A stretch of 19,373 nt of DNA, from the IMG/VR virus record IMGVR_UViG_2617270959_000004, one strand, 5' to 3'. The notes beneath the pieces are model-generated. The model worked only from the letters and a program-made list of their open reading frames with translations, searched no databases and was not told the DNA's origin. How positions within the stretch are numbered: position 1 is the first letter of the stretch; the number at the start of each line of letters is the position of its first letter. Source of the DNA: a virus. Lineage: Duplodnaviria; Heunggongvirae; Uroviricota; Caudoviricetes. The position numbers and the translations under genes were made by a program. Shown here one piece after another: positions 4,755 through 6,713 of this stretch.

Positions 4755-6713
4755 ATGCAGGCTGGTCACCAGAGTGACGCGGATATTTATATTTATGACG
4801 AGATTGGTTTCTGGGGTGTTACAGCGAAGCAGTTTATCAGTGATCTGAATGCACTGGGCGATATCACCCACATTAATCTCCATATCAATTCACCGGGTGG
4901 CGATGTCTTTGAAGGCATCGCCATTTTTAATGCGCTGAAAACACATGGTGCGTCCATTACCGTTTATGTCGACGGTGTGGCGGCGTCAATGGCGTCGGTC
5001 ATTGCGATGGTGGGAAACCCGGTCATTATGCCGGAAAACACCTTCATGATGATTCATAAACCATTTGGCTTTACGGGCGGTGATGCGGAGGACATGCGCA
5101 CCTATGCCGACCTGCTCGATAAGGTTGAGGCGGTTCTGTTACCCGCTTATGCACAGAAAACCGGGAAAACCACCGATGAAATTGCTGCCATGCTGGCGGA
5201 TGAGACCTGGATGTCCGGTGCCGAATGTCTGGCACATGGATTTGCTGATCAGGTGACGCCAGCCGTTAAGGCAATGGCATGTATTCAGTCAAAACGTACA
5301 GAGGAATTTAAAAAGATGCCGGAATCCATTCGAAACATGATTACTCCGCCACGCAACAGTGCTCCACGCGTACAGGATGATGAACCTGCAGCCTCCCGGA
5401 CGCCAGTGCAGGCAGCAGCACCCGTGGTGGATGAAAACAGTATCCGTGCGCAGGTACTGGCAGAGCAAAAAGCGCGTGTAAACGGTATTAATGATCTGTT
5501 TGCCATGTTTGGCGGGCGTTATCAGACGCTGCAGGCTCAGTGTCTTGCCGATCCTGAGTGTTCGCTGGAGCAGGCCCGCGAAAAGCTGTTGAACGAGATG
5601 GGGCGCGAGTCCACGCCATCCAATAAAAATACACCGGCTCATATTTATGCTGGTAACGGTAATTTTGTGGGGGACGGGATCCGCCAGGCGCTGATGGCGC
5701 GTGCCGGATTTGAAAAAACCGAACGTGATAATGTCTACAACGGGATGACCCTGCGTGAATATGCCCGTATGTCACTGACTGAACGGGGTATTGGGGTTTC
5801 CGGTTATAACCCGATGCAGATGGTCGGTGCGGCGTTCACCCACAGTACGTCTGACTTCGGTAATATTCTGCTGGATGTTGCGAACAAAGCCATTCTGCAG
5901 GGCTGGGAAGATGCTCCTGAAACCTATGAACAATGGACGCGGAAAGGTCAGTTGTCTGATTTTAAAATTGCCCATCGTGTGGGTATGGGGGGCTTCAGTG
6001 CTCTGCGTCAGGTGCGTGAAGGGGCGGAATATAAATACGTCACCACCGGAGATAAACAGGCCACTATTGCACTGGCGACCTATGGCGAGCTGTTCAGTAT
6101 CACCCGTCAGGCCATTATCAATGATGATCTGAATATGCTGACCGATGTCCCGATGAAACTGGGCCGTGCGGCGAAATCCACTATTGCCGATCTGGTTTAT
6201 GCCATTCTGACGTCTAACCCGAAAATCTCCACAGATAATGTAAGTCTGTTCGATAAAGCGAAACATGCAAACGTACTGGAGAGCGCTGCAATGGACGTGG
6301 CATCGCTGGATAAAGCCCGCCAGTTGATGCGCGTTCAGAAAGAGGGGGAGCGTCATCTGAATATTCGTCCTGCGTTCGTACTGGTACCGACGGCGATGGA
6401 GTCTGTTGCTAACCAGGTCATTCGCTCCTCAAGTGTCAAGGGGGCTGACATTAACGCCGGTATTATTAACCCGGTGAAAGATTTTGCGACCGTTATTGCA
6501 GAGCCTCGTCTTGATGATAACAGCCAGACCACCTTCTACCTGGCTGCGTCAAAAGGCTCCGATACGATTGAAGTGGCTTATCTCAACGGTGTGGATACGC
6601 CATATATTGATCAGATGGAGGGCTTCAGTGTGGATGGCGTGACAACGAAAGTGCGTATTGACGCCGGTGTCGCGCCAGTTGATCACCGCGGTCTGGTGAA
6701 ATGTACGGCGTAA
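4755..6713 (+). CDS. Prohead protease (ClpP-like serine peptidase) / scaffold-like linker / major capsid protein fusion
   Basis: N-terminal ~170 aa show ClpP-family signatures (DIYIYDEIG..., INSPGGDV, GVAASMAS with Ser codon 4986-4988, MMIHKP His); a charged, Ala/Gln-rich linker follows; the C-terminal ~340 aa resemble phage major capsid proteins; one uninterrupted 652-codon frame. Confidence 0.8.
   Translation: MQAGHQSDADIYIYDEIGFWGVTAKQFISDLNALGDITHINLHINSPGGDVFEGIAIFNALKTHGASITVYVDGVAASMASVIAMVGNPVIMPENTFMMIHKPFGFTGGDAEDMRTYADLLDKVEAVLLPAYAQKTGKTTDEIAAMLADETWMSGAECLAHGFADQVTPAVKAMACIQSKRTEEFKKMPESIRNMITPPRNSAPRVQDDEPAASRTPVQAAAPVVDENSIRAQVLAEQKARVNGINDLFAMFGGRYQTLQAQCLADPECSLEQAREKLLNEMGRESTPSNKNTPAHIYAGNGNFVGDGIRQALMARAGFEKTERDNVYNGMTLREYARMSLTERGIGVSGYNPMQMVGAAFTHSTSDFGNILLDVANKAILQGWEDAPETYEQWTRKGQLSDFKIAHRVGMGGFSALRQVREGAEYKYVTTGDKQATIALATYGELFSITRQAIINDDLNMLTDVPMKLGRAAKSTIADLVYAILTSNPKISTDNVSLFDKAKHANVLESAAMDVASLDKARQLMRVQKEGERHLNIRPAFVLVPTAMESVANQVIRSSSVKGADINAGIINPVKDFATVIAEPRLDDNSQTTFYLAASKGSDTIEVAYLNGVDTPYIDQMEGFSVDGVTTKVRIDAGVAPVDHRGLVKCTA

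What the first reader, a model, noticed from the sequence alone, without database searches (positions are those of the whole stretch)
4755..6713. Protease, scaffold-like linker and major capsid protein encoded as one 652-codon ORF
Lambda has separate C, Nu3, D and E genes. Here one frame carries a ClpP-like serine protease domain, an Ala/Gln/Glu-rich linker and a capsid-like C-terminal domain. This implies autoproteolytic release of the mature capsid protein and a head module of different ancestry from the lambda-like tail. The upstream open frame from 4494 and the real start site are unresolved.
Basis: partly seen in the sequence, partly recalled or inferred. Interest (0 to 1): 0.5.

Follow-up and report, generated by a model that had tools for sequence, protein, structure and literature searches.

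The report
Known phage protease–scaffold–capsid fusion gene
This is an ordinary copy of a phage head gene already described in Salmonella phage Gifsy-2, in which a protease, a scaffold-like linker and the major capsid protein are one reading frame; the only new point is sequence evidence for a conserved second, internal translation start.

Summary
One open frame (window 4494-6713, + strand) carries a ClpP-like protease domain, a linker and a major-capsid domain. The architecture is already known:
- The protein passes NCBI's curated model for [quoted passage not shown] (986 bits, cut-off 475).
- It is annotated under that name in RefSeq.
- At least 80% of the stretch is present in 2011 of 5426 complete E. 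coli genomes.
- It is 70% identical end to end to the Gifsy-2 "tripartite capsid gene" (Effantin et al. 2010).

The unresolved start is most likely GTG 4686, not ATG 4755. It has AAGGAGG 5 nt upstream, and relatives keep a start with a ribosome-binding-like site inside the portal gene's 3' end. That gives 675 aa and a 56-nt overlap with the portal gene.

The new point is an in-frame ATG at 5316 (Met211), at the protease/linker junction. It is invariant in 71 homologues and preceded by a conserved AGGA kept at a synonymous site. A second fusion family, with an unrelated HK97-type protease, shows the same feature. This suggests a nested scaffold-capsid product, as in lambda C/Nu3. This is inferred from sequence, not shown.

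AlphaFold gave no usable capsid model.

The parts
4686..6713 (+). Full-length ORF: ClpP-like prohead protease, scaffold-like linker and major capsid protein (675 aa plus stop). It overlaps the 3' end of the portal gene by 56 nt.
   Evidence: NF045540 scores 985.9 bits against a cut-off of 475. PGAP annotates exactly these limits in an identical E. coli copy, WP_001136590.1. The exact 675-aa protein is in NCBI under that name (P0004). It is 70% identical to Gifsy-2 STM1034.3n.
4674..4688 (+). Ribosome-binding site AAGGAGG (4674-4680), a 5-nt spacer, and the GTG start codon (4686-4688).
   Evidence: Sequence read. The same AAAGGAGG-N5-GTG lies 55 nt before the portal stop in mEp213 (where it is the annotated start) and in phage 1720a-02. 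An SW(F/Y) motif upstream of ATG 4755 is invariant.
4755..4757 (+). It is most likely internal Met24, not the start.
   Evidence: The only Shine-Dalgarno-like bases are an AGG directly abutting it. The aligned residue is Ile in Gifsy-2 and in Pseudomonas phage CF165a.
4821..5258 (+). ClpP-like (MEROPS S14) head-maturation protease domain, residues 46-191 of the 675-aa protein. Predicted catalytic codons: Ser101 (4986-4988), His124 (5055-5057) and Glu173 (5202-5204).
   Evidence: Pfam CLP_protease E = 4.5e-36. NF045542 'head maturation protease, ClpP-related' scores 215.8 against a cut-off of 120. Solved ClpP chains match at E = 4e-16, with Ser and His aligned and Glu in place of the ClpP Asp. 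S101, H124 and E173 are invariant in alignments A1, A2 and A5.
5302..5318 (+). Candidate internal translation-initiation region: AGGA (5302-5305), a 10-nt A/T-rich spacer, and ATG (5316-5318, Met211).
   Evidence: ATG is present in 71 of 71 homologues. AGGA is at -14..-11 in 54 of 55 representatives. Codon 206 ends in G in 54 of 54, against 14-72% at the 20 other conserved E/K/Q columns. It is the only conserved Met with an upstream SD-like motif. The surrounding mRNA is among the least structured in the ORF.
5316..6713 (+). Putative nested product: scaffold-like domain plus major capsid protein (465 aa). Inferred, not shown.
   Evidence: Homology with the HK97-protease fusion family starts 13 residues after this Met. 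That family has its own SD+ATG at the equivalent junction in 40 of 43 representatives.
5343..5429 (+). Variable Pro/Ala/Val-rich hinge (about residues 220-248), with insertions and deletions among homologues.
   Evidence: Lowest column conservation in the protein (0.26-0.48) and several indel sites. pLDDT below 50 and no secondary structure in the models.
5430..5615 (+). Conserved helical module (residues 249-310), the candidate scaffolding (delta-like) domain.
   Evidence: Three helices (250-273, 280-288, 294-307). Ten-residue block mean pLDDT across 251-300 is 75-85, the best part of the model. Conservation is 0.6-0.65. No Pfam family matches.
5808..6701 (+). Major capsid protein core (residues 375-672). 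The N-arm and the maturation cleavage site probably lie in 5616-5807.
   Evidence: Pfam Phage_capsid_4 E = 8.3e-55 and Mu-like_gpT E = 3.7e-08. A profile of 48 homologues hits solved capsid proteins 8rkc/8rkx (E = 3.6e-10) and 9jod (E = 6e-8).
6737..6757 (+). Intrinsic-terminator-like hairpin GGCCCGTAAGGGCT followed by a T run, between the fusion gene and the cement gene.
   Evidence: Found by the scan. The equivalent site is annotated as a rho-independent terminator in mEp460 and mEp213.
6800..7123 (+). Head decoration / cement protein gene (DUF2190, Phage_cement_2), the functional partner of the capsid protein.
   Evidence: Pfam PF09956 E = 2.3e-20. 60% identical to Gifsy-2 STM1034. [quoted passage not shown]
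3233..4741 (+). Portal protein gene (lambda family), whose 3' end contains the start of the fusion gene.
   Evidence: Pfam Phage_portal_2 E = 9.6e-82. PGAP limits.

Best explanation
Window 4686-6713 is a copy of the Gifsy-2-type 'tripartite capsid gene' of lambdoid prophages. One frame encodes three parts:
- an N-terminal ClpP-fold serine protease (Ser101/His124, with Glu173 in the position of the ClpP Asp);
- a linker made of a variable hinge and a conserved three-helix module that probably acts as a scaffold;
- a C-terminal capsid protein of the Phage_capsid_4 / Mu gpT type.

Translation starts at GTG 4686, inside the end of the portal gene.

Proposed mechanism (inferred by analogy with HK97, lambda and Gifsy-2). 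The capsid domain builds the procapsid shell with its N-terminal extension pointing inward, so protease and scaffold are carried inside covalently. After assembly the protease cuts the linker and itself away. The shell matures, and the DUF2190 cement protein encoded next door binds it.

The sequence further suggests that the ORF is a nested gene. A conserved AGGA-N10-ATG at 5302-5318 would let ribosomes also start at Met211. That would make a 465-aa scaffold-capsid protein without the protease, like an HK97 gp5. The protease-bearing full-length form could then be one component rather than every subunit, as with lambda C/Nu3.

Shown here: domain content, family membership, the conserved start, and the conserved internal signal. 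Inferred: proteolysis, assembly order, and use of the internal start.
For: Identity and family:
- NF045540 scores 985.9 bits against a cut-off of 475, and NF045542 scores 215.8 against 120.
- PHROG 133 matches full length; both Pfam domains are found.
- RefSeq annotates an identical copy as a ClpP-like prohead protease/major capsid protein fusion protein.
- It is 70% identical over the whole length to the Gifsy-2 gene, with the same gene order: large terminase, small ORF, portal, fusion, cement, tail.
[quoted passage not shown] Its capsid is listed as T=7 (PMC8814770), with trimers at the 3-fold axes (PMC8538268).
- The same ClpP + gpT fusion is reported in Paracoccus prophages (PMC6536676).

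Start site.

Catalytic residues.

Internal start:
- ATG is invariant in 71 of 71 homologues, and AGGA is kept at a synonymous position.
- The mRNA around it has low predicted structure: mean z = +1.7, and it is in the least-structured 10% of windows in 83% of 48 representatives.
- In the unrelated-protease family NF045541, 40 of 43 representatives have SD+ATG in the linker. There, 49 of 105 linker ATGs carry an SD, against 24 of 455 elsewhere.
- Homology between the two families begins 13 residues after Met211.
- Nested protease/scaffold genes are documented for lambda, HSV-1 and the archaeal virus HFTV1 (bioRxiv 10.64898/2026.09.13.751334).
Against: - There is no experimental data for this copy.
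- This prophage is probably defective: its small-terminase gene is cut by IS1.
- Two AlphaFold2 runs gave mean pLDDT of 35.6 and 43.2, with the capsid domain below 50. The capsid fold therefore rests on sequence profiles and on homology to Gifsy-2.
- The third catalytic residue is Glu, not Asp.
- For the internal start: the AGGA-to-ATG spacer is 10 nt, longer than optimal. The homologues are related, so counts are not independent. The conserved Glu/Asp-Phe/Tyr-x-x-Met-Pro motif could matter as protein, for example as a cleavage or docking site.
- The Gifsy-2 paper could not be read in the library, so I do not know what precursor bands or N-termini it reports.
Confidence: 0.9

Rival explanations
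1. Single polyprotein only. Every capsid subunit is made as the 675-aa precursor, and the conserved AGGA-N10-ATG is not a start. It would be a relic of an ancestral gene boundary, or conserved because the peptide or RNA has another role, such as a cleavage site, a docking motif or a translational pause.
For: The fusion is uninterrupted in all lineages examined. The 10-nt spacer is suboptimal. Met211-Pro212 and Phe/Tyr208 are conserved as amino acids. My estimate is that about 415 copies of a 35-40 kDa internal extension would still fit inside a T=7 procapsid.
Against: Residue 206 varies (E/K/Q/G), yet its codon always ends in G, so that AGGA is kept (54 of 54, against 14-72% at comparable columns). 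The HK97-protease fusion family has SD+ATG at the same junction, often with canonical 6-9 nt spacing. The mRNA is locally unstructured. A mere relic would not be expected to hold at synonymous sites across sequences 51-100% identical.
Confidence: 0.3
2. Two genes were wrongly joined by a sequencing or assembly error, or this copy is a decayed pseudogene in a dead prophage.
For: This prophage copy has an IS1 element cutting its small-terminase gene. Public databases do contain frameshifted chimeras of this locus, such as the 1159-aa portal+fusion proteins.
Against: 100% identical DNA is present in many complete genomes, and copies covering at least 80% are in 2011 of 5426 E. coli genomes. Isolated phage genomes (mEp460, cdtI, Tritos, Ayreon, phi458) carry the same ORF at about 99% identity. 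66 of 71 diverged loci keep the single frame.
Confidence: 0.02
3. The N-terminal domain is a cellular-type ClpP subunit that works with ClpX/ClpA in general proteolysis, not a capsid maturation protease.
For: Sequence similarity to solved ClpP chains (E = 4e-16) and to NCBIfam ClpP models.
Against: All cellular ClpP models score far below their cut-offs (for example TIGR00493 at 59.7 against 308.6). The phage head-maturation model NF045542 passes. The domain is fused to a capsid protein and sits between the portal and cement genes.
Confidence: 0.03

Closest known systems
Salmonella phage Gifsy-2 'tripartite capsid gene' (STM1034.3n; Effantin et al. 2010, Virology 402:355, PMID 20427067)
   Same: 70% identical over the full length, with the same three segments. 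The gene neighbourhood is the same, including a 60%-identical cement protein. From my memory of the abstract: a ClpP-like N-terminus, a central domain of about 200 residues with a possible scaffolding role, a C-terminal capsid protein, and a lambdoid T=7 capsid with gpD-like trimers.
   Different: It is a different host and phage, and the hinge region differs in sequence and length. The Gifsy-2 record annotates a longer N-terminus (696 aa). The paper could not be read here, so the mature N-terminus and precursor sizes are not available for comparison.
NCBIfam NF045540 (scaf_prot_MCP1), as annotated in E. coli RefSeq and in phages mEp460, cdtI, Tritos and Ayreon
   Same: The window protein is a full-length member (986 bits), and its exact sequence is in RefSeq.
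   Different: Nothing of substance. Phage annotators variously call it protease, scaffold, Nu3 or major capsid protein.
Lambda C / Nu3 / D / E head genes
   Same: The same job and the same position after a lambda-family portal gene. The protease comes from the ClpP/S49 superfamily: lambda C also hits CLP_protease weakly. If the internal start is used, it has the same nested in-frame logic as C/Nu3. There is also an added cement/decoration protein.
   Different: Lambda keeps the capsid protein E as a separate gene. Its families are different (Peptidase_S49, Phage_cap_E). There is no detectable sequence similarity to the window protein.
HK97 gp4 protease and gp5 (delta domain + capsid protein)
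   Same: A scaffold-like N-terminal extension is fused to the capsid protein and removed by a phage protease. The putative Met211 product would be the direct analogue of gp5.
   Different: The HK97 protease is a separate gene of family S78, and its capsid family is PF05065. hhalign finds no similarity. HK97 uses covalent crosslinks rather than a cement protein (established knowledge).
NCBIfam NF045541 (scaf_prot_MCP2): HK97-type protease + scaffold + capsid fusions, e.g. Ralstonia phage YO122_2
   Same: The scaffold+capsid part is homologous (31% identity over window residues 224-672). It has the same fused layout after the portal gene, and the same SD+ATG at the protease/scaffold junction.
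   Different: The protease domain is unrelated: HK97 family (TIGR01543 hit) instead of ClpP-like.
Nested protease/scaffold genes of HSV-1 (UL26/UL26.5) and archaeal virus HFTV1 (gp17/gp17.5)
   Same: An in-frame internal start yields the scaffold without the protease. This was shown by ribosome profiling for HFTV1.
   Different: In those viruses the capsid protein is a separate gene. Here the nested product would include it, and its use is only inferred.

Membership tests
NF045540 ClpP-like prohead protease / major capsid protein fusion | Whole-protein score above the curated cut-off, matched end to end | tested here: met
   985.9 bits against 475; residues 9-651 matched to model positions 2-651 of 652.
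NF045540 ClpP-like prohead protease / major capsid protein fusion | N-terminal ClpP-related head-maturation protease domain with catalytic Ser and His | tested here: met
   NF045542 scores 215.8 against 120. Pfam CLP_protease E = 4.5e-36. Ser101 and His124 align with the ClpP catalytic residues and are invariant; the third position is Glu173 instead of Asp.
NF045540 ClpP-like prohead protease / major capsid protein fusion | C-terminal major capsid protein domain (Phage_capsid_4 / Mu gpT type) | tested here: met
   PF25209 E = 8.3e-55 and PF10124 E = 3.7e-08. A family profile hits solved capsid proteins 8rkc/8rkx and 9jod.
NF045540 ClpP-like prohead protease / major capsid protein fusion | HK97-like three-dimensional fold of the capsid domain | tested here: inconclusive
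   Two AlphaFold2 runs gave pLDDT below 50 over the capsid domain. No fold search was run, because it would be meaningless on such a model.
Gifsy-2-type tripartite capsid gene | End-to-end homology and the same head-gene neighbourhood | tested here: met
   70% identity over 652 aa. The cement protein is 60% identical. Gene order is the same.
Gifsy-2-type tripartite capsid gene | Proteolytic release of a mature capsid protein that forms a T=7 shell with trimeric decoration | not testable with these tools
   Known only from the literature on Gifsy-2. It needs virion proteomics or cryo-EM.
Nested protease/scaffold genes (lambda C/Nu3 type) | Conserved in-frame internal ribosome-binding site and start codon downstream of the protease domain | tested here: met
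   ATG in 71 of 71; AGGA in 54 of 55; synonymous-site constraint; low mRNA structure. The same feature is seen in family NF045541.
Nested protease/scaffold genes (lambda C/Nu3 type) | The internal start is actually used, so that two proteins are made | not testable with these tools
   It requires initiation-site ribosome profiling, western blots or N-terminal proteomics.
Lambda head module (C S49 protease, Nu3, D, E) | Sequence membership in Peptidase_S49 and Phage_cap_E | tested here: not met
   No BLASTP hit to C, Nu3, D or E. hhalign against gpE gives probability 0.2%. The Pfam families differ.
HK97 gp4/gp5 | Peptidase_S78 protease and a PF05065 capsid protein | tested here: not met
   The Pfam families differ. 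hhalign against gp5 gives probability 0.3%.
Cellular ATP-dependent ClpP | Score above the curated cut-offs of the ClpP equivalog models | tested here: not met
   TIGR00493 scores 59.7 against 308.6, and NF001368 scores 79.6 against 249.

The most novel reading that the evidence does not exclude
The fusion ORF is a two-product nested gene. Besides the 675-aa protease-scaffold-capsid protein, ribosomes start at the conserved AGGA-N10-ATG (5302-5318) and make a 465-aa scaffold-capsid protein.

This internal start would be a general, selected feature of both protease-capsid fusion families, the ClpP-like and the HK97-protease-like. It would set the protease-to-capsid ratio, extending the lambda C/Nu3 and herpesvirus UL26/UL26.5 scheme to genes that include the capsid protein itself.

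I found no description of this in the searchable literature. I could not read the Gifsy-2 paper, so it may already have been noted there.
Probability: 0.65. Interest if true: 0.45.

Novelty: already known. Interest (0 to 1): 0.25.

Why it matters
The fusion itself changes nothing. It is published and curated, and copies covering at least 80% of it are in more than a third of complete E. coli genomes.

It has practical value for annotation. Phage records label this gene inconsistently as protease, scaffold, Nu3 or major capsid protein, and use different starts. The evidence here supports the 675-aa form that starts inside the portal gene.

If the conserved internal start is used, it would explain how a phage with a fused gene avoids placing a protease on every capsid subunit. 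It would also show that the nested protease/scaffold scheme known from lambda, herpesviruses and an archaeal virus persists after fusion to the capsid gene. A few silent mutations and initiation-site profiling in mEp460, cdtI or Gifsy-2 could test this.

Tried and rejected
- **Structure prediction.** The full-length protein was run with 20 sequences (mean pLDDT 35.6) and with 102 sequences that included Pasteurellaceae homologues (mean pLDDT 43.2). The capsid domain was never confident, so no fold search was run.
- **hhalign.** The scaffold+capsid profile against lambda gpE and HK97 gp5 gave no signal; the profile is shallow (Neff 2.3) and the templates were single sequences.
- **Natural 'split' genes.** Database proteins of 458-465 aa begin exactly at the Met211 equivalent (P0301, P0295, P0255, P0124, P0216). 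The two whose contigs were examined (P0301, P0295) are products of a scaffold gap and a contig end, not natural splits. They show only that gene callers accept this start.
- **Programmed -1 frameshift at TTTAAAAAG upstream of ATG 5316.** Rejected: it is not a canonical slippery heptamer in this frame and is not conserved.
- **Met137.** It is preceded by GGAGG, but the spacer is only 2 nt, and the motif follows from the conserved residues GGDAEDM.
- **1159-aa portal+fusion proteins.** The frame switch falls at a different place in each, so they are random single-base indels within the 250-nt region where both frames are open.
- **Literature.** The Gifsy-2 paper (PMID 20427067) and Liu & Mushegian 2004 are not held in the library. 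Searches for experimental work on mEp460 or for an internal start in these fusions found nothing.
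Full report
**Observation.** ATG 4755 gives 652 aa. In 652-aa numbering, Pfam finds CLP_protease at aa 23-168 (E = 4.5e-36) and Phage_capsid_4 at aa 352-649 (E = 8.3e-55), plus a weaker Mu-like_gpT match.

**It is a known gene.**
- NCBIfam model NF045540, [quoted passage not shown], matches end to end at 985.9 bits against a curated cut-off of 475. The domain model NF045542, "head maturation protease, ClpP-related", also passes.
- PHROG 133 matches full length.
- DNA identical over 4494-6800 occurs in many complete E. coli chromosomes, where PGAP annotates it under exactly that name. 2135 of 5426 complete genomes have a match, and 2011 cover at least 80% of the stretch.
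- Phages mEp460, cdtI, Tritos, Ayreon and phi458 carry it at about 99% identity, under a variety of product names.
- By tblastn, 80 phage records hold the full-length fusion, including Pseudomonas phages at 56% identity.

**Link to Gifsy-2.** The protein is 70% identical end to end to Gifsy-2 STM1034.3n, in the same gene order, and the downstream DUF2190/Phage_cement_2 protein is 60% identical. That Gifsy-2 gene is the subject of Effantin et al. [quoted passage not shown] The paper is not held in the library, but citing papers state the following:
- Its capsid is T=7 (PMC8814770).

The same ClpP + gpT fusion of about 700 aa has been noted in 17 Paracoccus prophages (PMC6536676).

**Start site.**
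- ATG 4755 has only an abutting AGG upstream.
- GTG 4686 is preceded by AAGGAGG and a 5-nt spacer.
- The same AAAGGAGG-N5-GTG lies 55 nt before the portal stop in mEp213, where it is the annotated start, and in phage 1720a-02.
- Gifsy-2 and Pseudomonas phage CF165a have Ile where the window has Met24, and start further upstream.
- The motif Ser-Trp-(Phe/Tyr), encoded upstream of 4755, is invariant.
- PGAP also uses 4686, and the exact 675-aa protein is in NCBI.

I therefore place the start at 4686. The gene overlaps the portal gene by 56 nt.

**Anatomy (675-aa numbering).**
- *Protease, about residues 20-195.* Ser101 and His124 align with the ClpP catalytic Ser and His. The ClpP Asp aligns with Glu173, which is invariant, whereas the neighbouring Asp172 is not.
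- *Junction, 196-214.* A conserved stretch that ends in Met211-Pro212.
- *Hinge, about 220-248.* The least conserved part, with indels.
- *Helical module, 249-310.* It is conserved. It is also the only part AlphaFold modelled with some confidence: helices 250-273, 280-288 and 294-307, with ten-residue block mean pLDDT of 75-85 across residues 251-300.
- *Short variable stretch, 305-319.* It is followed by the capsid protein proper. Its mature N-terminus probably lies somewhere in 305-345 (inference).

**Capsid fold.** Two AlphaFold2 runs failed for this domain. The evidence is therefore sequence-based: the Pfam matches; a profile of 48 homologues that hits solved capsid proteins 8rkc/8rkx ("Mu GpT domain-containing protein", E = 3.6e-10) and 9jod (E = 6e-8); and homology to Gifsy-2. 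hhalign against lambda gpE and HK97 gp5 shows nothing.

**Relation to lambda and HK97.** The window is a mosaic.
- Tail-tip proteins L, K, I and J are 78-96% identical to lambda.
- Other tail proteins are 26-56% identical.
- Large terminase is 24% and portal 21% identical.
- The fusion and the cement protein have no BLASTP match to lambda C, Nu3, D or E.

Lambda C is Peptidase_S49 and E is Phage_cap_E. HK97 gp4 is Peptidase_S78 and gp5 is Phage_capsid.

**A conserved internal start signal.** I collected fusion ORFs from one genome per species, giving 71 usable sequences of 51-100% identity (66 of them from this scan, plus the window and four phage loci). They come mainly from Enterobacterales, Pasteurellaceae, Shewanella and Pseudomonas.
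- The codon for Met211 (window 5316-5318) is ATG in all 71.
- Among 55 representatives below 95% identity, positions -14 to -11 are AGGA in 54. The exception has GGAG shifted by one base.
- Residue 206 varies (Glu, Lys, Gln, Gly), but its codon ends in G in 54 of 54. At the 20 other conserved Glu/Lys/Gln columns, the G-ending fraction is 14-72%. This points to selection on the nucleotides rather than on the protein.
- Met211 is the only conserved Met with an upstream Shine-Dalgarno-like motif throughout the family.
- The 50-nt window around this ATG is in the least-structured 10% of the ORF in 83% of 48 representatives (mean z = +1.7).

**Independent replicate.** A second curated fusion family, NF045541, has an HK97-type protease instead of a ClpP-like one. 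Its scaffold+capsid part is homologous to the window protein from window residue 224 onward, 13 residues after Met211.
- In 43 representatives drawn from 82 loci of this family (the two phage loci plus 80 IMG/VR loci), 40 have an in-frame ATG in the linker with an SD core 4-10 nt upstream. Many are of the form AAGGAG-N6-8-ATG.
- 49 of 105 linker ATGs carry such a motif, against 24 of 455 ATGs elsewhere in the ORFs.

**Reading of the internal signal.** The most economical reading is a nested in-frame gene. The full-length protein carries the protease. A 465-aa scaffold-capsid protein, an analogue of HK97 gp5, starts at Met211. This parallels lambda C/Nu3, HSV-1 UL26/UL26.5 and HFTV1 gp17/gp17.5. 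It remains an inference for three reasons:
- The spacer in the ClpP-like family is 10 nt.
- The sequences are phylogenetically related.
- Met-Pro could also matter as protein.

**Mechanism proposed.**
- *Shown here:* the domains, their order, family membership, the conserved catalytic Ser and His, the start signals, and the partner cement gene.
- *Inferred from HK97, lambda and Gifsy-2:* the capsid domain assembles a T=7 procapsid with its N-terminal extension inside. The covalently attached protease is thereby encapsidated. It removes the linker and itself. The shell then expands and is stabilised by trimers of the DUF2190 cement protein.

**Verdict.** The residual novelty lies in the conserved internal initiation signal. 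I could not find it described, and it is directly testable.

Noticed in passing
window 1-722, junction at about 710: The window begins with an IS1 (IS1F-like) element, about 99% identical to the E. coli K-12 copies. Identity to the intact prophage starts at 710, so only residues 108-175 of the DUF1441 small-terminase gene remain (710-916). This prophage copy is therefore probably unable to package DNA.
   Followed up: yes
L077/L043 (Kluyvera genomosp. 1) and L085/L046 (Rahnella victoriana): In two genera the homologous fusion gene is split within the protease domain, at about residues 121-135, next to the catalytic His motif. The insert is about 11 kb and begins with a tyrosine integrase (Arm-DNA-bind_3 + Phage_integrase). 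This looks like a mobile element, possibly a satellite, that uses this capsid gene as its integration site.
   Followed up: partly
window 6737-6757: An intrinsic-terminator-like hairpin with a T run sits between the fusion gene and the cement gene. The equivalent site is annotated as a terminator in mEp460 and mEp213. It could tune the capsid-to-cement ratio.
   Followed up: partly
window 4485-4741 (database proteins P0005, P0007, P0009, P0010, P0012, P0013, P0016): Public databases hold many 1159-aa 'portal + fusion' chimeras. In the seven read, the frame switch is at a different position in each. They are therefore random single-base indels in the roughly 250-nt stretch where both frames are open, not a programmed event.
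   Followed up: yes
window 5202-5204 (Glu173): The residue aligned with the catalytic Asp of ClpP is an invariant Glu in this whole family, so the triad would be Ser-His-Glu. The adjacent Asp172 is not conserved: it is Lys in Gifsy-2 and Glu in the Pseudomonas phage.
   Followed up: partly
window 12967-18754 versus 925-7123: There is a steep mosaic gradient relative to lambda. Tail-tip genes L, K, I and J are 78-96% identical at the protein level. Terminase and portal are only 21-24% identical, and the capsid genes are unrelated at the sequence level.
   Followed up: yes
L089 (Ralstonia phage YO122_2) 1829-3922; L090 1428-3410; L091-L170: A parallel fusion family (NF045541) joins an HK97-type protease to a homologous scaffold+capsid module. 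More than 500 such loci were found in IMG/VR. The same module has therefore been fused to two unrelated proteases.
   Followed up: partly
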